NCBI GenBank assembly: GCA_017626365.1
Contig: JAGAIV010000036.1
Coordinates: forward strand, 31,104-95,103
Direction of reading: 5' to 3'
DNA from: Clostridia bacterium
GTDB taxonomy: Bacteria > Bacillota > Clostridia > TANB77 > CAG-508
DNA: 64,000 nucleotides
Positions within the stretch are counted from its first letter, which is position 1, and every line of letters begins with the position of its first letter. Below, piece after piece: positions 3,001 through 43,775 of the stretch. The translations under genes and the position numbers were made by a program. The notes beneath the pieces are model-generated. The model was not told the DNA's origin and made no database searches. It was given only the letters and a program-made list of their open reading frames with translations.

Positions 3001-4542
3001 CAAGGTTTAAATGCCACATCATATAACGGTCAAGATTATCAATCAACAACCTTTACAACAAAACAAGGAGAAACTGTAACACCACATAATTATAAAGTGG
3101 ATGCAACTTTACAAAGTATTTATAATGCAAGTAATGCAGCTAAAAATAGTGAAGAAAAAGATGTAACAGTAGCAGATCAAGTTATTAAAAAATATGATAT
3201 AGAGGGATATTATTGGTTTGATGATCCATATATGGCTAATAAATCGGATGCAGAAGATGATGCAGCAAGAAGAGCACAAGTAGTTGCATATTCAAAAACA
3301 GAATATGGAAAAGAAATTACAAACCATAAAGCAGAAGTGTTTAACTCATATATTAACCAAAAGACATTAAGAGAACAAGAGTCTAAAGACGATAAATTTG
3401 ATAAGTTTACACAAGCACAGCCAATGGAGGAAGTTGTTGATACAGAAGCTAAAAATAGAGAGCTTGTTAATGAACTTGAAAGAAGAACCTATATGTATGC
3501 ATATACACCAGAAATCAAAGTAGAGGTTGAGTATACAACAAAACAAATTGAAGGAAACATGAATGCTAAGAAGGCAGCAGATGATAAGAAAGACTACTAT
3601 GAATACAAGATTACAGGAGTTGACTTCGGAGTAGTAGAAAGACCAAGAACGCAATTAACCATTGACCAAGATATTGATCATATTAAAGTTACAGCAGCAG
3701 ATGGAACGACTTTATTAGAATTACAACATGAAGAAACTGGAGACAACTTTAAGGTGGTAGTAAATAATGGTGATAACTACATGTATGCACCAAAGAGTGA
3801 TTTTAGCAAATATGATAAAGAAGAATTACTAAATGTTATCTTAGATGATGAGTTATTAAGTGGTGCAAAACTAGAAGTAACTTATAACATTACAGTAACA
3901 AACAATAGTGAAGCAAATACTGGTACTACAAGAGCAAAAACAATTATTAATTATGTAGCAAATAACTTAAACTTTGATTTAAGTGACAACAATGGTTTAT
4001 GGGAAGTAGTGAAAAAAGAAGATATTCAAACAACATCTCATTCAACATTTATCAATAACGCATCAAGAAATAAAGATGTAAAATTAGTAGATTTAAGTAC
4101 GCAAACAACAGTATTAAAAGCAACAAATGCTAACCCACTTACAAAGGTACTAAATCCAGGAGAAAGCACAACTTCTACATTAACCCTAAAGAAAACACTA
4201 TCTGCAGAAAGTTCAGTAGATGACTTAAGTTACAGTAATATGAGTGAAATCATAGAAATTGATAATACAGTAGGTAGATATGATCATGGAGCAATTCCAG
4301 GAAACCAAAGCTTAGAAGAACAACCACGTGAACATGATACTTCAGGAGCTAGTAGATACGATGAAATAGACCAAACTTCAGGAACAAAGAATGTAAAAAC
4401 AAGATATCCACAAGATGGTAAAATAATCGTAACACCACCAACAGGTTCAAAAATTATTTACTACGTATTAGGAATTACTTTAGCAGTTATATTAGCAACA
4501 GGAATTATCTTAATTAAGAAATTTGTAATACGTAAAAAATAA
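1..4542 (+). CDS. Large cell-wall-anchored surface adhesin, 5' end outside the window. It has several Cna-B-like repeats and a C-terminal sorting signal (TPPTG, hydrophobic helix, KKFVIRKK tail)
   Basis: Frame 1 is open from position 1 with no stop, so the track ORF 379..4542 is an internal Met. Repeated 'DGxYxF / GDYTxxFxYG' Cna-B-like motifs are present. The C-terminus reads ..VTPPTGSKIIYYVLGITLAVILATGIILIKKFVIRKK, a sortase (S/P)PxTG-like signal. Confidence 0.8.
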   Translation, partial: AQAYWKFYKLTHSGTTDIFETLIKDRSSNIKVGVDQTGGYYVVGPFKVTYPDGVYNGKNRFSWVEKVEAVTDTGTYPAEVLEYSDFGKEGSTSLNGKEFYIKFYSNTATNVSLKVKFGYLESCSATMKKYVGKRMNCNWTLQTSGKCDHSYNDPWDASKNDSNGNGIQDNGEVGDWHEWKVDKKRYEAKEEEGSATQRLMALEGQASKNYKYVEKVLPLQPIPLTIDIGGNVFLDKDEGKVNEGNNVFDDGEGLKGVEVYLYEASGNAASGQYEEKHVHSGSSSSGTGCYTTPIYHKHEGNVTEAVYHTHTLECYKHDDAGNVIDASGKILYDKNRNFVQNGTPIIICGKEERKTIDYYKNTCAGKVTYSTSYFTCTKTEGKTIDGYALGCNKIEGQTVEGRKEVKNKTITGDNGYYEFKNLNAMKKYYVEFVYNGMLYTNVLPFTGDNAEKQSKATEAAVSSTNRQAFNDKFKEIGSNPNNYMSPSRGAYNQVFLQEDIADTFKTIASNYGSHGNTDKEVFAFDCRIRARSVKNYPVLDKFAISESNETLGGETFPALYAGADNPKHINLGIKARQTFDLALYKDVFNAKLNINGQEEVYTYDARKDWQNEGFSYGVREDYYLEELRNKYIEGKDTNITTTEVASEGEYSHEYRTEEIINGNNVNENYQSWLKDNNYLNTLYGEDSNKQYAWRDINHGITDKDKLQIHVTYKIAIRNQSSVVGSVTEIVDYYDSHYQFEKAYVGDKDGKEIANTKVDASETSMYGEATRMGANGQWTVGSEKRGYKTIYLRPTEKKLYTDDKEQYIYVTFGLINPESTLIAAGLPQGKRFYTYNLAEINGYKTYGTDIKDTNSLGLIDRDSNPGNFNPATYEMGKTALEDDTSKAPAYAYSIRTSRTLEGNVFEDALSKDATASKEKYVVNVAKTRFGNGTIDSSDKKIEGVKVELVEIKNGQLVVRQTTYTDKDGWYGFGAFLPGDYTIRFTYGAEDKTALTTTSQYTQGLNATSYNGQDYQSTTFTTKQGETVTPHNYKVDATLQSIYNASNAAKNSEEKDVTVADQVIKKYDIEGYYWFDDPYMANKSDAEDDAARRAQVVAYSKTEYGKEITNHKAEVFNSYINQKTLREQESKDDKFDKFTQAQPMEEVVDTEAKNRELVNELERRTYMYAYTPEIKVEVEYTTKQIEGNMNAKKAADDKKDYYEYKITGVDFGVVERPRTQLTIDQDIDHIKVTAADGTTLLELQHEETGDNFKVVVNNGDNYMYAPKSDFSKYDKEELLNVILDDELLSGAKLEVTYNITVTNNSEANTGTTRAKTIINYVANNLNFDLSDNNGLWEVVKKEDIQTTSHSTFINNASRNKDVKLVDLSTQTTVLKATNANPLTKVLNPGESTTSTLTLKKTLSAESSVDDLSYSNMSEIIEIDNTVGRYDHGAIPGNQSLEEQPREHDTSGASRYDEIDQTSGTKNVKTRYPQDGKIIVTPPTGSKIIYYVLGITLAVILATGIILIKKFVIRKK

Positions 4543-7287: not shown

Positions 7288-7292
7288 AATTT

Positions 7293-7326
7293 AAGGACGA
7301 AAGTAAAAGCTACTTTCGTCCTTTTT
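7293..7326 (+). terminator. Rho-independent terminator of spoIIE
   Basis: aaggacgaaagta-aaagc-tactttcgtcctt followed by ttttt. Confidence 0.8.
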
Positions 7327-7382
7327 AAGCCCTATTTAGCTAATGCGGCTGTCTGCAAAAGCAGACTGAAGGGTTCTAAAAG
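7327..7382 (+). repeat. GC-rich palindromic intergenic element, family 1 (unit C, degenerate)
   Basis: gccctatttagctaatgcggctgtctgcaaaagcagactgaagggttctaaaag. Aligns with the units at 10343..10389 and 36954..36997. Confidence 0.6.
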
Positions 7383-7459
7383 AATTAAAATCCTACTTTA
7401 CAACTAATCCTAAAAATGATATATTATATTATGTAAAAATAAACCGTGGAGGGGAATAT

Positions 7460-10231: not shown

Positions 10232-10389
10232 GAACCCTCCGTCTCGCTTGCGCGAGCCACCTCCCTTAAATAAAGGAGGCTTTTCTCTATATTTCATAGA
10301 TACGACTACATGCTAGTGCTAAATTAAAATTAGTAGAGTAAAGGCCCCTTTACCTAAGGGGGCTGTCGCCGTTAGGCGACTGGGGGTTC
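10232..10389. repeat. Composite family-1 element: two inverted copies of the GC-rich unit at 10232..10280 and 10343..10389, flanking an AT-rich core
   Basis: The reverse complement of the left unit (gcctcctttatttaagggaggtggctcgcgcaagcgagacggagggttc) aligns with the right unit (ggcccctttacctaagggggctgtcgccgttaggcgactgggggttc). Each unit has two hairpins. Confidence 0.65.
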
Positions 10390-10404
10390 TAAGAGGAGAA
10401 CACT

Positions 10405-10789: not shown

Positions 10790-11566
10790 ATGGAACTATT
10801 CGATTCACATTGCCATTTAGATGATGAGAAATTTGACCAAGATCGAGAAGAGATAATTTCTCATATTTTTTCTTCAGGTGTAACAAAATTAATTAGTGCA
10901 GGCTATAGCCTAGAAGGTTCTAAAAAAGCAATCGAACTTACCAGTAAGTATCCACAAATTTATACAGTAAGTGGAATATCGCCAAACGATATTTTAGAAA
11001 ATGTGGAAAAAATAGAAGAACAAATTAATGAAATTGAAAAGTATGCGAAAAATGAAAAAGTAGTTGGAATTGGAGAAATTGGTTTAGACTATTATTGGAA
11101 TAAAGAAAATAAAGATTTGCAACAGTTTGCATTTATAAAACAAATCGAACTTGCAAACAGTCTAAACTTACCGATTGTAATTCATACAAGGGATGCTGTA
11201 GCAGATACCATAGAAATCTTAAAGAAACATCCAGTAAATAAAAAAGGCGTTTTTCATTGCTGTCCACTAAATCCAGAATTAATAAAAGAAGCCTTAAAAC
11301 TAGGATTCTACATCTCCTTTGCAGGACCAATTACTTTTAAAAACTCAAAAAATGCAGATGAAGTAATTAACCTAGTACCAGACGATAGAATTCTAATTGA
11401 AACCGATAGCCCATACCTATCACCAGAACCAAACCGTGGAAAACGAAACGATTCTAGCAATGTAAAATACATTGCCCAAAAAATTGCAAATGTCAAAGGA
11501 TATGCAGTGGAAAAGGTAGCAAAAATGACATATGACAATGCTTGCCGAATTTTTGAAATAAAGTAA
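10790..11566 (+). CDS. tatD: TatD-family metal-dependent hydrolase/DNase
   Basis: N-terminal MELFDSHCHLDDEKF. TatD signature histidines are present. Confidence 0.85.
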   Translation: MELFDSHCHLDDEKFDQDREEIISHIFSSGVTKLISAGYSLEGSKKAIELTSKYPQIYTVSGISPNDILENVEKIEEQINEIEKYAKNEKVVGIGEIGLDYYWNKENKDLQQFAFIKQIELANSLNLPIVIHTRDAVADTIEILKKHPVNKKGVFHCCPLNPELIKEALKLGFYISFAGPITFKNSKNADEVINLVPDDRILIETDSPYLSPEPNRGKRNDSSNVKYIAQKIANVKGYAVEKVAKMTYDNACRIFEIK

Positions 11567-14535: not shown

Positions 14536-15264
14536 ATGGAGAACGAAGTTATGGATAAAGACAAAAAAACAATTCTAATTGTAGATGATGAGCAACATAT
14601 CGTAGATATTCTAGTGTATAATTTGGAAAAAGAGGGATACAACACATTGCAAGCAAATGATGGAATAACAGCGGTTGATATTGCTCTAAATCAAAAACCA
14701 GATTTAATTTTATTAGATATTATGCTTCCAAAAATGGATGGATTAGCAGTCTGCAAAAAGATTCGTCATACATTAAATGTTCCAATTTTAATGCTAACTG
14801 CAAAAGATGAAGAAATTGATAAAATTCTAGGATTAGAATTAGGGGCAGATGATTATGTAACAAAACCATTTAGTGTAAGAGAATTAATGGCAAGAATTAA
14901 AGCTAATTTAAGAAAAGCAGAAATTTCTTCTGGAACAGTAGAAGAAAAAATAGAAAATACAAATAAAATTGTAGTGGGAGATTTGAGTTTAGATTTAGAT
15001 AAATTCGAAGTGAGAGTAAAAGGAGAAGTAGTTGACCTAACACTAAGAGAATTTGAAGTTTTAAAATATTTAGCAAATCAACCTGGACAAGTTATTACAA
15101 GAGAAGTATTGCTAGAAAAAGTATGGGGATACGAATATTATGGCGATATTAGAACCGTTGATGTTACTGTAAGAAGAATTCGTGAAAAAATTGAAAAAGA
15201 TACATCCGCTCCAAAAATCTTAATTACAAAAAGAGGAGTCGGCTATTATATAGCATCAAAATAA
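14536..15264 (+). CDS. OmpR-family response regulator (WalR/YycF-like)
   Basis: Receiver domain (ILIVDDE..D) plus winged-helix C-terminus. RBS gaggtg precedes the ATG at 14536. Confidence 0.8.
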   Translation: MENEVMDKDKKTILIVDDEQHIVDILVYNLEKEGYNTLQANDGITAVDIALNQKPDLILLDIMLPKMDGLAVCKKIRHTLNVPILMLTAKDEEIDKILGLELGADDYVTKPFSVRELMARIKANLRKAEISSGTVEEKIENTNKIVVGDLSLDLDKFEVRVKGEVVDLTLREFEVLKYLANQPGQVITREVLLEKVWGYEYYGDIRTVDVTVRRIREKIEKDTSAPKILITKRGVGYYIASK

Positions 15265-15273
15265 GAAATAATG

Positions 15274-15369
15274 TGTAGGGGTCAATGCCCTCATCGACCC
15301 GTTTTCGTGAAATGTATAGTATAACAATACAAATTTAAAAACGGGTCGACGAAGGCGTCGACCCCTACA
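15274..15369. repeat. Family-2 GC-rich palindromic element. Two inverted GTAGGGGTCGAC hairpins flank a 40 nt AT-rich core, inserted between the RR and HK genes
   Basis: tgtaggggtcaatgccctcatcgacccgtttt ... aaaacgggtcgacgaaggcgtcgacccctaca. The arms are reverse complements with a few mismatches. Confidence 0.65.
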
Positions 15370-15402
15370 TTTAAGATGAAAAAGATTTAAGGGGATAAAA
15401 AA

Positions 15403-16758
15403 ATGGTTAAAAATGTACAATTAAAAATTATCTTAATTTTTACAATAATAACAATTATTCTACTTACAGGAGTAAGTCTATATTTTCTACATAATGTGCA
15501 AAACATAAATACACAAATTGCACTATTAGAAAATAAAATAGAACTAGCAAATCAAACAAAGAATTTAATTGAACAAGGAACATTACTTACAATTTGTTCA
15601 ATTGCCATATTTTGTTTTATTGTAATACTAATAGCATTTATTACTGCAAAAGTAACAACACCTATGAATAAATTAATTAGTAGTGCAAAACGTATTGCAG
15701 AAAATGAAGAAGGAGAAATATCAAGACAAAAAAATCAAATAGAAACTATTCTATTACATATGACAGATGGTATTATTGCATTTAATATGGAGGGAAAAAT
15801 TATTTTAGTAAATCCTGCAGCAACAAGGCTTTTGAGAATTATGCCAGAAGATGATACGTTTGAAAAAATATTTGAAAAATTAGATGTAGAAATCAATATG
15901 GAAAAAATTATTTACCTAGATAACTGGACTTCATCAGAAGAAAGAGTTACTTTAGGAGATAAGCATATCAATTTATTTTTTGCACCTTTAAAAGAAGAAG
16001 ACGAAAGACCAGCAGGAGTTATGGTAGTGATTCAAGATATCACAGAGCATGTAAAATTAGACAATATGAGAAAAGAATTTGTTGCTGATGTATCACATGA
16101 ATTAAAAACACCAATTACTTCTATTATGGGATATGCTGATACTTTATTAGAAGGAGAATATGATAAACAAACACAAGATAAGTTCCTAAATGTAATTGCA
16201 GCAGAAGCAAGAAGAATGGCGAAATTAGTGACTGACCTTTTAGCATTATCAAGATTTGATAATAACCAAGTAAAACAACAAAAAGAAGAATTTGACCTAG
16301 GTGAACTCGTAAAGAAATGCCAAGAAAAAGTACAACCACAAATTAACCAAAAAAAGCATCAAGTAGAATGCTTTGTAACAGCCAATGTTCCACCAGTCTA
16401 TGCTGACAAAGATGGAATCGAAAGAGTTGTTCTAAACATCTTAACCAATAGTATCAAATATACCAAAGAAAGTGGACATATAAAGATATATGTGGGATTT
16501 GTATATAACGATGCTTATATAAAAGTAATTGACAATGGAATTGGTATTCCAGAAGCCGACCTTTCTAGAATATTTGAAAGATTCTACCGTGTCGACAAAG
16601 CTCGTACACGTGAAATGGGAGGAACCGGACTTGGGCTATCCATTGCTAAAGAAATACTAGATAGAAATAATGGAAGTATTGATATAAAGAGTGAATATGG
16701 AAAAGGAACAGAAGTTGTTATTCGTATTCCAACCGTTCAAGATAAAAATAGAATATAG
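15403..16758 (+). CDS. Sensor histidine kinase (PAS + HisKA + HATPase), partner of the upstream RR
   Basis: TM region, PAS-like segment, H-box ADVSHELKTP, and G-boxes (GGTGLGLSI). Confidence 0.8.
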   Translation: MVKNVQLKIILIFTIITIILLTGVSLYFLHNVQNINTQIALLENKIELANQTKNLIEQGTLLTICSIAIFCFIVILIAFITAKVTTPMNKLISSAKRIAENEEGEISRQKNQIETILLHMTDGIIAFNMEGKIILVNPAATRLLRIMPEDDTFEKIFEKLDVEINMEKIIYLDNWTSSEERVTLGDKHINLFFAPLKEEDERPAGVMVVIQDITEHVKLDNMRKEFVADVSHELKTPITSIMGYADTLLEGEYDKQTQDKFLNVIAAEARRMAKLVTDLLALSRFDNNQVKQQKEEFDLGELVKKCQEKVQPQINQKKHQVECFVTANVPPVYADKDGIERVVLNILTNSIKYTKESGHIKIYVGFVYNDAYIKVIDNGIGIPEADLSRIFERFYRVDKARTREMGGTGLGLSIAKEILDRNNGSIDIKSEYGKGTEVVIRIPTVQDKNRI

Positions 16759-17490: not shown

Positions 17491-17502
17491 AAATAATTTG
17501 TA

Positions 17503-17540
17503 TGGGTTGCATATCATGCAACCCATTTGTTTTTACCATA
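17503..17540 (+). terminator. Rho-independent terminator after lepB
   Basis: atgggttgcatat-catgcaacccat followed by ttgttttt. Confidence 0.75.
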
Positions 17541-22777: not shown

Positions 22778-22877
22778 TTATTAAAAACCTCCTTTATTAA
22801 TAAATTATACCTCAAGTATATTCTTAAAATGCATAGATGTCAAGAAAAAAAGCTTATACTAAACGGTCATTTTTATA

Positions 22878-22926
22878 AAAGATGATTTTAGGTGGATGAT
22901 TTTTTCACCCGTCCCTAAAATCATTT
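22878..22926. repeat. Family-3 palindromic element (ATGATTTTAGGG...CCCTAAAATCAT), copy F1, lying between two divergent promoters
   Basis: aaagatgattttagg-tggatgattttttcaccc-gtccctaaaatcattt. The plus promoter TTGACA(22932)-17-TATAAT(22955) follows immediately. Confidence 0.6.
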
Positions 22927-22989: not shown

Positions 22990-23181
22990 GTGATGAAGGA
23001 AGTGGGTTTCATTGTCGCAATAATAGGAATCGCTATTTTTGTGACAGCATATGTTACTCAACAAGAATCTGAAAATCCTAAAGAAAAGCGGTCAAAAAAG
23101 CGATTATTGGTCGTGAGAGGGGTTTTAGGTTTTATTATCCTAATCATTGGTATCTATATGATACAAATGAATGTAGGATGA
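22990..23181 (+). CDS. Small hypothetical membrane protein (63 aa)
   Basis: Two hydrophobic helices and an RBS aaaggagg. It contains an in-frame CGG codon at 23068..23070. Confidence 0.4.
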   Translation: MMKEVGFIVAIIGIAIFVTAYVTQQESENPKEKRSKKRLLVVRGVLGFIILIIGIYMIQMNVG

Positions 23182-23286
23182 AATAGGCAGATTCGAAAGA
23201 TACTTTCGAATCTGCTTTTAATTTGAAAATAATTGATAAATTCAATAAATTGGTATACAATAACAAAAGGAAAAGGAGAATTTTTT

Positions 23287-24566: not shown

Positions 24567-24593
24567 TGTAGGGGTCGACGACCTCGTCGACCC
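24567..24593. repeat. Family-2 hairpin, single copy (E)
   Basis: tgtaggggtcgacg-acct-cgtcgaccc. Same core as 15274..15369. Confidence 0.6.
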
Positions 24594-43539: not shown

Positions 43540-43775
43540 AAAATCACCAAACTCATTATACTAAAAAATAATGCTATAAAATGAATTGTTATAGAAATGT
43601 CATAAAAACTTAATATTTTTTATAAATATATCTGAAAACGGGAAATTTGTGAGGAAAATGTAAGAAAAAGAAGATAAGTGTAAAATGTAGGGGTTGGAAA
43701 AAAGAAAAAATTATTATATGATACAAGTAGTAATATTATAAGGAGAAAACAAAAGAAAAAGGGGCAAATTGTTTT

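What the first reader, a model, noticed from the sequence alone, without database searches (positions are those of the whole stretch)
15274..15369. Family-2 GTAGGGGTCGAC hairpin element splitting a response-regulator/histidine-kinase operon, with further copies at 24567 and 43684
RR–HK pairs are normally overlapping or a few nt apart. Here a 96-bp element of two inverted GC hairpins around an AT core occupies the 138-nt gap between the WalR-like RR stop (15264) and the HK start (15403). The same core, aatgtaggggtcgacg..cgtcgaccc, recurs as a single perfect 9-bp-stem hairpin at 24567..24593 downstream of cca. A truncated aatgtaggggttgg lies at 43684..43697. The insertion could add an internal terminator or attenuator, or an RNase site, that uncouples HK from RR expression
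Basis: seen in the sequence. Interest (0 to 1): 0.55.

Follow-up and report, generated by a model that had tools for sequence, protein, structure and literature searches.

The report
Mobile palindrome pair replacing an operon hairpin
The 96-base element between the response-regulator and kinase genes is a head-to-head pair of "REP" palindromes, a known kind of small dispersed bacterial repeat, which in this gut Clostridia species took the place of an older hairpin at the same spot, so it is a new member of a known kind rather than a new regulatory device.

Summary
Window 15275-15368 holds two inverted 26-nt units, each a GTAG tag plus a 9-bp GC stem and 4-nt loop, around a 42-nt AT-rich spacer. 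As RNA the region folds into one long hairpin (-52.7 kcal/mol, z = -8). An intact single unit lies at 24568-24593.

The units match the defining anatomy of GTAG-tagged REP sequences, arranged as a head-to-head dimer. The same unit, GTAGGGGTCGACG-YYYN-CGTCGACCC, is dispersed in many gut Clostridia genomes. It lies almost always between co-directional or convergent genes. In two of those genomes it borders, and sits inside, a single-copy RAYT-type HUH/Y1 transposase gene.

Orthologous regulator-kinase loci in six related lineages lack the element. They carry a conserved 11-22-bp hairpin at exactly that position, in spacers of 66-90 nt (284 nt in one lineage). The gap and the intercistronic hairpin are therefore ancestral, and the REP dimer replaced the hairpin. 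One sister lineage independently gained a different GTAG dimer in the same spacer.

Any effect on the regulator-to-kinase ratio is plausible but untested. The "third copy" at 43684 fits a second REP family better. No RAYT gene was seen in the window itself. Verdict: new member of a known kind, modest interest.

The parts
14536..15264 (+). OmpR-family response regulator gene (YycF/WalR/VicR-like), upstream neighbour of the element
   Evidence: The ORF is and the ATG start at 14536 was confirmed by exact look-up. NCBIfam resp_reg_YycF scores 333.9 bits against a cut-off of 340.
15273..15370 (+). Full extent of the long imperfect hairpin formed when the two units and the spacer ends pair. It starts 8 nt after the regulator's stop codon.
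   Evidence: RNA minimum-free-energy structure, -52.7 kcal/mol, z = -8.0.
15275..15300 (+). Left REP unit: GTAG tag (15275-15278) + GGGTCAATG / CCCT / CATCGACCC. It is a decayed member of the GATG/CATC sub-variant (8 of 9 stem pairs).
15301..15342 (.). AT-rich spacer between the two units, with complementary ends GTTTT...AAAAC. It cannot be aligned with the spacers of other dimers.
15343..15368 (-). Right REP unit. Read on the - strand it is GTAG + GGGTCGACG / CCTT / CGTCGACCC, the consensus stem with 9 of 9 pairs.
15390..15395 (+). Ribosome-binding site (AGGGGA) of the kinase gene, 7 nt before its ATG and outside the element.
   Evidence: Read from the sequence. The start is conserved with orthologs in alignment A3.
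15403..16758 (+). Sensor histidine kinase gene (PnpS/PhoR/WalK-like; PAS, HisKA, HATPase_c), downstream neighbour of the element.
24568..24593 (+). Single REP unit of the same family (GTAG + GGGTCGACG / ACCT / CGTCGACCC), between cca and the next co-directional gene.
   Evidence: It is identical in L135.
43687..43697 (+). Truncated GTAG-tagged remnant GTAGGGGTTGG with no palindrome. It fits the GGGTTGCAT family (10 of 10 leading bases) at least as well as the GGGTCGACG family.
17500..17524 (+). Unit of the second REP family: GTAT (mutated tag) + GGGTTGCAT / ATC / ATGCAACCC. It sits right after the signal-peptidase gene and is followed by TTTGTTTTT.
   Evidence: Its 21-nt core (stems and loop) is identical to that of the GTAG-tagged unit at L004 20576.

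Best explanation
The element is a head-to-head ('HH') dimer of GTAG-tagged repetitive extragenic palindromes (REPs). It resembles a BIME or REPIN. It belongs to a REP family spread through gut-associated Clostridia.

In at least two of those genomes the family is tied to a single-copy RAYT, a domesticated HUH/Y1 single-strand DNA transposase of the TnpA_REP type. Such enzymes recognise the GTAG tag plus the hairpin on single-stranded DNA.

In the recent ancestry of this species the dimer came to occupy the exact position of an older stem-loop with a short U-run between the regulator and kinase genes, and that older hairpin was lost.

On the regulator-kinase transcript the dimer folds into one roughly 45-bp imperfect hairpin that begins 8 nt after the regulator's stop codon. 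The most likely consequence is a continuation of what the ancestral hairpin did. It would act as a 3' barrier, through pausing or partial termination and through blocking 3'-5' exonucleases, perhaps also as an RNase III substrate. That favours more regulator than kinase. It has almost no U-tract, so it is probably a poorer terminator than the hairpin it replaced.

Shown here: the anatomy, family membership, dispersal, gene contexts, the RAYT link in other genomes, and the polarity of the change at this locus. Inferred: mobilisation by a RAYT in this genome, and any effect on expression.
For: Anatomy: each unit is GTAG + 9-bp GC stem + 4-nt loop.

Tag asymmetry: of 32 palindromes of this type in about 214 kb of low-GC sequence, 30 carry the tag on exactly one side and none on both.

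Family: 65 units anchored on RTAGGGGTC share the consensus GTAG GGGTCGACG CCCA/CCCT CGTCGACCC. One sub-variant has a compensatory C-G to T-A change at stem pair 8.

It still found the unit in MAGs labelled Clostridia, Oscillospiraceae, Ruminococcus and the like, with locus G+C of 27-59%. Loops there are 4 nt and pyrimidine-rich, whereas chance hits in high-GC phyla have heterogeneous loops. One MAG has at least 18 units, including HH dimers.

Context: of 25 sites, 17 lie between co-directional genes, 4 between convergent genes, 0 between divergent genes and 3 inside genes. This is the pattern reported for REPs (PMC3733652).

RAYT link: L055 3607-4119 encodes a 170-aa HUH/Y1 protein. It scores Pfam Y1_Tnp 27.5 bits (threshold 23) and NCBIfam REP_Tyr_transpos E = 3e-16 (59.6 bits, below the 80-bit cut-off). 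It aligns to E. coli TnpA_REP (4ER8) with the GTAG-contacting Q, E, H and R (W replaced by F in L055 itself), the catalytic Y and the N at conserved spacing. Its stop codon lies in the GTAG of a unit, and two units lie inside the ORF. In L144 units flank the gene on both sides. The gene is single-copy in a fixed folD-RAYT-dprA context in all 24 contigs read.

Locus history: the element is identical in 4 assemblies of this species. It is absent from L004, L136, L232, L233, L014 and L008, which share a hairpin with foot GTCGRAA (preceded by GG in four of the six) and the same downstream TTTTAAAATG...RBS sequence.
Against: No RAYT gene lies in the 64-kb window, and the rest of this genome could not be searched.

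The genome that supplied the RAYT is only a distant relative. One shared ortholog is about 45% identical at the protein level.

The spacers of six HH dimers cannot be aligned. The dimer is therefore not shown to replicate as one REPIN unit.

The window holds only three units, so high copy number in this genome is unproven.

No transcript data exist. The simple scan finds no + strand terminator at the element, and none at the ancestral hairpins either. Even the ancestral function is therefore inferred.
Confidence: 0.75

Rival explanations
1. It is a REP dimer but functionally inert at this locus. On this view it is selfish or neutral DNA tolerated downstream of a gene. Kinase expression would be unaffected, because read-through is unimpeded or because the kinase gene has its own promoter.
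For: REP units of this family sit in many unrelated intergenic spacers. No U-tract follows the stem and no + strand terminator is called. A sister lineage tolerates a different 99-nt GTAG dimer in the same spacer, in addition to the old hairpin.
Against: A strong hairpin at this exact position is kept in all six comparator lineages. In this species it disappeared only where the dimer supplies another hairpin. No promoter-like site is found in or after the element. The kinase gene therefore probably depends on transcription through the structure.
Confidence: 0.3
2. It is a miniature inverted-repeat element (MITE) derived from a DDE-type insertion sequence. It would be mobilised through its terminal inverted repeats and not by a Y1 enzyme.
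For: It has roughly 32-nt terminal inverted repeats around an AT-rich core, which looks like a MITE.
Against: There is no target-site duplication: the flanks are ...AATAATGT and ATTTAAGA.... Single units occur on their own far more often than pairs. Each end is an autonomous GTAG-tagged hairpin. The only transposase gene found with these units is a Y1/HUH RAYT. Spacers differ completely between dimers.
Confidence: 0.04
3. It is a dedicated cis-regulatory RNA (attenuator, riboswitch-like leader or binding site for the regulator) that evolved for this two-component operon.
For: Its position between the two genes and its very stable fold.
Against: The same unit occurs after cca in the window and at dozens of unrelated loci in other genomes. 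Orthologous operons lack it. Rfam gives nothing at gathering thresholds, and only sub-threshold matches to plant microRNA-precursor models, that is, generic long hairpins.
Confidence: 0.03
4. The pre-existing hairpin mutated in place into a REP-like sequence (de novo REP birth or gene conversion), with no insertion.
For: The ancestral hairpin foot resembles the REP foot. L233 reads TTAGGGGTCGGAAATC against the REP's GTAGGGGTCGACG, and the hairpins of the other lineages share GTCGRAA, preceded by GG in four of the six. The element sits exactly where the hairpin sat.
Against: The right unit is a perfect consensus copy, and the left unit belongs to a sub-variant seen elsewhere. Two units plus a 42-nt unrelated spacer cannot arise from a 14-22-bp hairpin by point mutation. 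Conversion by a REP template is still a form of copying from the family.
Confidence: 0.08

Closest known systems
GTAG-tagged REP families and their HH dimers (Di Nocera, De Gregorio & Rocco 2013, PMC3733652)
   Same: A GTAG tetranucleotide on one side of a 6-13-bp GC-rich stem with a short loop. Units occur singly or as head-to-head dimers spaced 20-100 bp apart, often as heterodimers with spacers that have complementary ends. They lie mostly after genes, between co-directional or convergent ORFs.
   Different: That survey's text does not mention Firmicutes or Clostridia. The stem GGGTCGACG with a YYYN loop was not found in the searched literature. The host genome is 30% G+C. Copy number in this genome is unknown.
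REPIN-RAYT systems of Pseudomonas and Enterobacteria (Bertels & Rainey 2011, PMC3116915; RAREFAN preprint)
   Same: Two inverted REPs that can fold as one long hairpin, paired with a single-copy, vertically inherited Y1 transposase gene bordered by the same REPs.
   Different: REPINs are thought to replicate as whole doublets, spacer included. Here the spacers of six dimers cannot be aligned. The associated RAYT belongs to another group.
tnpA_REP subclass 2.4 of Quentin et al. 2018 (PMC6006769), equal to RAYT Group 4 of Bertels et al. 2017 (PMC5581495)
   Same: REP units are inserted in frame inside the RAYT gene as well as flanking it. Relatives have 'double-foot' GTAG...CTAC palindromes. Distribution across phyla is scattered. 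Both features are seen in L055, L144, L150 and most of 80 metagenome loci.
   Different: Assignment to subclass 2.4 rests on these features and not on a phylogeny. Here one unit usually lies upstream of the HUH motif and one downstream, which gives a 'VG...PT' signature in the protein. [quoted passage not shown]
E. coli REP/BIME elements inside operons (malE-malF and others)
   Same: Intercistronic palindromes transcribed as stable hairpins. They are reported to protect upstream mRNA, attenuate transcription, and, when close to a stop codon, lower translation of the upstream gene. This rests on my own knowledge of Higgins/Newbury 1987-88, Espeli 2001 and Liang 2015, of which only the titles were seen, in the reference list read.
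   Different: None of these effects was tested here. The host is Gram-positive-type with different RNases. No IHF or gyrase motifs were examined.
Correia elements of Neisseria and similar MITEs inserted in operons
   Same: An element of roughly 100 bp with inverted ends that folds into a long RNA hairpin within co-transcribed units (my own knowledge).
   Different: Correia elements have TA target duplications and conserved interiors. This element has neither.

Membership tests
GTAG-tagged REP | 20-40-nt imperfect palindrome with a GC-rich stem and a short loop | tested here: met
   26-nt units with a 9-bp stem and a 4-nt loop.
GTAG-tagged REP | Unpaired GTAG (or GTRG) tetranucleotide at one end only | tested here: met
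   30 of 32 palindromes have GTAGG on exactly one side and none on both. T precedes the tag in 31 of 43 Clostridia copies.
GTAG-tagged REP | Many dispersed copies in one genome, mostly extragenic | tested here: inconclusive
   The window holds 3 units in 64 kb. One other MAG has at least 18 units on the stretches fetched, but the scan was truncated and biased. The genome of the window could not be counted.
GTAG-tagged REP | Preferential location downstream of ORFs (co-directional or convergent spacers) | tested here: met
   17 co-directional, 4 convergent, 0 divergent, 3 intragenic.
GTAG-tagged REP | A cognate RAYT gene bordered by the same REP in the same genome | not testable with these tools
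   This is met in other genomes, L055 and L144.
REPIN (Bertels & Rainey) | Two REPs in inverted orientation able to form one long hairpin | tested here: met
REPIN (Bertels & Rainey) | The whole doublet, spacer included, is the replicating unit, so doublets share spacer sequence | tested here: not met
   The spacers of 6 HH dimers (24-42 nt) share no alignable sequence. The sample spans two organisms, four dimers from one MAG.
RAYT / TnpA_REP (for the L055 protein) | HUH motif, catalytic Tyr followed by N four residues later, and the GTAG-contacting W/Q/E/H/R positions of E. coli TnpA_REP | tested here: met
   Features present: HIH; QRNYYEHIVRN; YIKNNP. Spacing is identical to 4ER8. The positions are invariant or nearly so in 16 homologs. 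The residue list comes from PMC6006769. The NCBIfam equivalog score of 59.6 bits is below its 80-bit cut-off.
RAYT / TnpA_REP (for the L055 protein) | Single copy in a fixed chromosomal context (domesticated, not IS-like) | tested here: met
   All 24 contigs read show folD-RAYT-dprA. A related lineage has the same context with the gene split into two ORFs.
DDE-type MITE | Terminal inverted repeats plus a target-site duplication | tested here: not met
   Inverted ends are present, but there is no direct repeat at the borders.
Intrinsic (Rho-independent) terminator | GC-rich stem-loop immediately followed by a U-run on the transcribed strand | tested here: not met
   No + strand site is called in 15270-15400. 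The only call is the right unit read on the - strand. About 3 U follow the long stem, counting the U that closes it.
Curated RNA families (Rfam 15) | Match at the gathering threshold | tested here: not met
   There are 0 hits in the whole window. Only sub-threshold plant miRNA-precursor models match.

The most novel reading that the evidence does not exclude
Palindromic repeats associated with Y1 transposases may home to existing terminator-type hairpins and replace them, rather than landing at random and being filtered by selection.

Three observations point this way. First, at the regulator-kinase spacer the dimer's borders coincide with those of the lost hairpin, whose foot (GGTCG; TAGGGGTCG in L233) mimics the REP foot. 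Second, a sister lineage gained a different GTAG dimer in the same spacer. Third, the spot just after the neighbouring signal-peptidase gene holds a REP unit, a solo TIR, a full TIR-TIR element or a plain hairpin, depending on the lineage.

If true, this would give a concrete, testable rule for how REPs choose their targets, and would show that they routinely take over terminator duty in Clostridia.
Probability: 0.15. Interest if true: 0.55.

Novelty: new member of a known kind. Interest (0 to 1): 0.3.

Why it matters
REP/RAYT systems have been studied mainly in Proteobacteria. The surveys read here name them most often in Proteobacteria, Cyanobacteria and Bacteroidetes. This locus shows a well-defined GTAG-REP family with its RAYT in uncultured, low-GC gut Clostridia.

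It also gives a clean natural experiment: the same two-component operon with an ancestral hairpin, with a REP dimer in its place, or with both. That series could be used to measure what a REP dimer does to the ratio of an upstream to a downstream cistron in a Gram-positive-type background.

There is a practical use for annotation too. These GC-rich hairpins in AT-rich genomes should be masked as repeats and not called as regulatory RNAs or terminators.

Tried and rejected
- A protein search with the C-terminal 108 aa of the L004 Y1 gene found nothing. That was a wasted search.
- A first motif scan for RAYT genes in the loci held at that time found none. The L055 gene surfaced only as a weak tblastn hit next to a REP.
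- There are no tRNA or tmRNA genes in the window.
- Rfam gave nothing at gathering thresholds, and only sub-threshold plant miRNA-precursor models at the element.
- No promoter-like or + strand terminator-like site lies inside the element.
- The same simple scan does not call the ancestral hairpins as + strand terminators either. I therefore describe them as hairpins with a short U-run, not as proven terminators.
- The REPIN criterion of a shared spacer failed.
- The unit was absent from 2.9 million viral contigs.
- The literature search for the sequence itself returned only unrelated primer and guide strings. 'RAYT' plus 'Clostridi' returned author-name noise.
- I briefly took the REP units inside the RAYT gene for a new finding. 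Quentin et al. 2018 already describe them as the hallmark of subclass 2.4.
- I could not link a RAYT to the window's own genome.
- Liang et al. 2015 could not be read. The '15-nt from the stop codon' rule is therefore quoted from memory only.

Full report
**1. What is in the sequence**

The window is 30% G+C. Between the stop codon of an OmpR-family response regulator (14536-15264) and the start of a PAS/HisKA/HATPase histidine kinase (15403-16758) lie 138 nt.

Inside this gap, the repeat finder reports 32-nt arms at 15274-15305 and 15338-15369, 88% complementary. It also reports a perfect 9-bp palindrome at 15343-15351 / 15356-15364.

Read closely, the element is two 26-nt units in inverted orientation:
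- Left unit, 15275-15300, + strand: GTAG GGGTCAATG CCCT CATCGACCC.
- Right unit, 15343-15368, - strand: GTAG GGGTCGACG CCTT CGTCGACCC.

A 42-nt AT-rich spacer separates them, and its ends (GTTTT...AAAAC) are complementary. As RNA the whole region folds into one long imperfect hairpin, 15273-15370. Its energy is -52.7 kcal/mol against -24.0 ± 3.6 for shuffles, z = -8.0.

A third, intact unit (GTAG GGGTCGACG ACCT CGTCGACCC) lies at 24568-24593, between cca and the next gene.

The motif counts are far above chance. GTAGGGGTCGAC with up to 2 mismatches occurs 5 times against 0.46 expected, and TGTAGGGG occurs 4 times against 0.48 expected. No shuffle reaches either count.

The piece at 43684-43697 has no palindrome. 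Its GTAGGGGTTG equals the first ten bases of a second family, GTAG GGGTTGCAT ATC ATGCAACCC. That family forms a head-to-head dimer in a related species (L004 20576-20647). In the window it has a unit with an exact core at 17500-17524, whose tag is mutated to GTAT.

**2. What kind of element it is**

A GTAG tetranucleotide at one foot of a short GC-rich hairpin is the defining anatomy of the GTAG super-family of repetitive extragenic palindromes (REPs). Two units with the tags outside form the 'HH dimer' of Di Nocera et al. (PMC3733652).

I tested the defining features.

*Tag asymmetry.* In about 214 kb of low-GC sequence (the window plus the fetched loci), 30 of 32 palindromes of this type carry GTAGG on exactly one side and none on both.

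*A coherent family.* Sixty-five units anchored on RTAGGGGTC give the consensus GTAG GGGTCGACG CCCA/CCCT CGTCGACCC. A sub-variant, GGGTCGATG...CATCGACCC, has a compensatory change at stem pair 8. The window's left unit is that sub-variant with one further substitution. The window dimer is thus a heterodimer, like the one at L037 1783-1858.

- Hits in high-GC Actinobacteria and similar genomes have heterogeneous 2-7-nt loops and look like chance.
- Hits in MAGs labelled Clostridia, Oscillospiraceae, Ruminococcus and the like (locus G+C 27-59%) nearly all share 4-nt pyrimidine-rich loops: CCCA ×20, CCCT ×10, CCTT ×3 and so on.
- One MAG (ABMPRH_60_1) shows at least 18 units, including HH dimers.

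*Context.* Of 25 sites, 17 lie between co-directional genes, 4 between convergent genes, none between divergent genes and 3 inside genes. This is the published REP pattern.

*No target-site duplication* at the borders.

One REPIN criterion failed. The spacers of six HH dimers cannot be aligned. I therefore call the element a REP HH dimer and not a proven REPIN.

**3. The transposase link**

A weak tblastn hit next to a REP led to L055 3607-4119. This is a 170-aa protein with HUH (MPNHIHML) and YYEHIVRN...YIKNNPL motifs.

Its database matches are:
- Pfam Y1_Tnp, 27.5 bits (threshold 23).
- NCBIfam REP-associated tyrosine transposase, E = 3e-16 (59.6 bits, below the 80-bit cut-off).
- E. coli TnpA_REP (4ER8). 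The residues said to contact GTAG (W94, Q95, E100, H101, R104), the catalytic Y115 and N119 fall at identical spacing. L055 has F at the W position, while most homologs have W (residue list from PMC6006769).

Its TAG stop codon is the TAG of a REP unit (4116-4141), and two units in inverted orientation lie inside the ORF. In a related lineage (L144) units also flank the gene on both sides. There the gene is split into two ORFs and is probably a pseudogene.

In all 24 contigs read, the gene sits between folD and dprA. It is single-copy and in a fixed place, like a domesticated RAYT and unlike an insertion sequence.

A homolog 55% identical (L150) carries, at the same two positions, a different hairpin (GTAG GGCGGGATG CCTT CATCCCGCC). 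Relative to L055, three stem pairs are changed on both sides.

Of 80 homolog loci from metagenomes, most hold lineage-specific GTAG hairpins inside the ORF, and often the same hairpins flank the gene.

This looked new to me but is not. Quentin et al. 2018 describe in-frame REP insertions inside the gene as the hallmark of tnpA_REP subclass 2.4, which equals RAYT Group 4.

The family therefore has a cognate RAYT of a known subclass. What I could not show is a RAYT in the window's own genome. None is in the 64 kb. The RAYT-bearing MAG is a distant relative, with one shared ortholog about 45% identical.

**4. History of the locus**

Exact-protein look-ups gave orthologous loci.

Four assemblies of the same species carry the element unchanged (L001-L003, and L135, which is 99.8% identical over 20.7 kb). 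L135 has three substitutions in the 33 nt after the element.

| Lineage (locus) | Regulator identity to window | Spacer | Content of spacer |
|---|---|---|---|
| L232 | 97% | 79 nt | hairpin only |
| L004 | 95% | 84 nt | hairpin only |
| L136 | 95% | 84 nt | hairpin only |
| L233 | 95% | 90 nt | hairpin only |
| L014-L019 | 94% | 66-68 nt | hairpin only |
| L008-L013 | 93% | 284 nt | hairpin plus a different GTAG HH dimer |

All six lineages lack the window's element. Each spacer is dominated by one 11-22-bp hairpin of -20 to -30 kcal/mol. Its foot is GTCGRAA (preceded by GG in four of the six lineages), and 2-5 U follow it.

The alignment shows that the sequence after the hairpin (TTTTAAAATGCAAAATGGGGGA...ATG) is homologous to the sequence after the element in the window (ATTTAAGATGAAAAAGATTTAAGGGGA...ATG). 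GAAATAA before it is also shared. The dimer therefore sits exactly where the hairpin sat, and the hairpin is gone. This is a replacement, adding about 54 nt net.

The L008-L013 lineage kept the hairpin and independently acquired a 99-nt HH dimer of another GTAG family further along the same spacer (L008 10868-10966).

The gap is not created by the element, and an intercistronic hairpin is the ancestral state of this operon in the clade.

**5. How it most likely works**

*As DNA.* By analogy with TnpA_REP and IS200/IS605 enzymes, a RAYT would recognise the tag plus the hairpin on single-stranded DNA and copy or move units. This is inferred and not shown for this genome.

*As RNA.* The kinase start codon and its ribosome-binding site (AGGGGA, 15390-15395) are intact and lie outside the element. 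No promoter-like site is found in or after the element. The kinase gene is therefore probably expressed by transcription through the structure.

The long hairpin starts 8 nt after the regulator's stop codon. Only about 3 U follow it, the first closing the stem as a G-U pair, and the scan calls no + strand terminator.

The most likely effect is the one classically attributed to intercistronic REPs. The hairpin would form a barrier that protects the upstream cistron's mRNA and attenuates downstream expression. The result would be more regulator than kinase.

From my own knowledge of E. coli work, REPs within about 15 nt of a stop codon can also depress translation of the upstream gene (Liang et al. 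2015, which I could not read).

The ancestral hairpins have longer U-runs, so the dimer is probably the weaker terminator. All of this is inference. I put about 0.45 on a measurable effect and 0.3 on functional neutrality.

**6. Comparison, novelty, verdict**

The element is a GTAG-REP HH dimer with a subclass-2.4-type RAYT partner in related genomes. That is a known kind.

What is new is the membership:
- This stem/loop family was not found in the literature searched.
- Firmicutes and Clostridia are not mentioned in the main GTAG survey.
- Bertels et al. mention Clostridia only for Group 1 RAYTs.

The clean hairpin-for-dimer replacement in a two-component operon is also new, as is the turnover of palindromic elements at neighbouring hairpin positions. 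Both are consistent with, but do not prove, targeting of existing hairpins.

Interest is modest at 0.3. Confidence in the identity of the element is about 0.9, and confidence in the whole explanation is 0.75.

Noticed in passing
AGGCCCCTTTACCTAAGGGGGCTGTCGCCGTTAGGCGACTGGGGGTTCTAA recurs at both places. At 10241-10393 the ends AGAACCCTCC...GGGGGTTCT are inverted, as in a roughly 150-nt MITE, between the 411-aa gene and acpS. The same spacer is 10 nt in L004 and 292 nt in L008.
   Followed up: partly
window 17500-17524: A unit of a second REP family (GTAT GGGTTGCAT ATC ATGCAACCC, followed by TTTGTTTTT) right after the signal-peptidase gene. Its 21-nt core (stems and loop) is identical to that of one of the two GTAG-tagged units that form an HH dimer upstream of cca in L004 (20576-20647).
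   Followed up: partly
window 17491-17530 compared with L004 12915-13013, L136 12953-13096, L233 4125-4276, L014 13008-13158, L008 13199-13339: The position just after the signal-peptidase stop codon holds a different hairpin-forming element in each lineage. The window has a REP unit, L004 a solo TIR unit, L136 and L233 full TIR-TIR elements (spacer fold -59.8 kcal/mol in L136), and L014 and L008 plain hairpins.
   Followed up: partly
window 22877-22926: AAAGATGATTTTAGGTGGATGATTTTTTCACCCGTCCCTAAAATCATTT is a copy of the inverted repeat that flanks a 245-aa Y1 transposase gene in related species. This is a third family linked to a Y1 transposase, present in the window only as a gene-less remnant.
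   Followed up: partly
L136 74-975 (also L004 1-370); corresponding site in window 7288-7459: A 245-aa HUH/Y1 protein with HAHLLI and YIHKNPVKA motifs plus a C-terminal extension. NCBIfam REP_Tyr_transpos gives E = 4e-19, below the cut-off. It is inserted between spoIIE and the WG-repeat gene. It is flanked by inverted TTTTAGGGACGGGG(G)TAAAAA repeats, each inside a GATGATTTT/AAAATCATC stem. This resembles the 'TIRYT' / subclass 2.1 type described in the literature. The window has an ordinary hairpin at this site and no such gene.
   Followed up: partly
L055 3745-3772 and 3918-3947; L144 2940-2965 and 3106-3131; L150 3133-3158 and 3310-3335; L152-L231: RAYT genes of this clade carry an inverted pair of their own REP inside the ORF, usually bracketing the HUH codons. 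The GTAG tags are read as Val-Gly and Pro-Thr, which are conserved in the protein alignment around hypervariable residues. Stems differ between lineages by paired changes. One homolog (P0185) has three tandem REP-encoded copies. In-frame REP insertion is already described for subclass 2.4 (PMC6006769). The unit upstream of HUH and the VG...PT signature may be worth a closer look.
   Followed up: yes
L008-L013 10868-10966: A different GTAG HH dimer (GTAGGGGCGTTTTTGAACGC ... GGGCGATTAAATCGCACCTAC) lies in the same regulator-kinase spacer of a sister lineage, downstream of the retained ancestral hairpin. This is an independent second arrival at the same spacer.
   Followed up: partly
L144-L148 (for example L144 2802-3336): In one lineage the folD-RAYT-dprA RAYT is split into 75-aa and 111-aa ORFs on 19 contigs, while REP units remain at both flanks and inside. 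It is probably a decaying RAYT with its REPs left behind.
   Followed up: partly
L016 about 11230-11290: The 'truncated' kinase gene of this locus is an assembly artefact. A run of N interrupts the ORF.
   Followed up: yes
window 22992-23215 compared with L004 20416-20708: Upstream of cca the window has a 62-codon ORF with a hairpin + TTTT (23187-23215). L004 lacks this ORF and has a REP HH dimer directly before the conserved cca promoter-like sequence (AATTGATAA...GGTATAYAAT).
   Followed up: no
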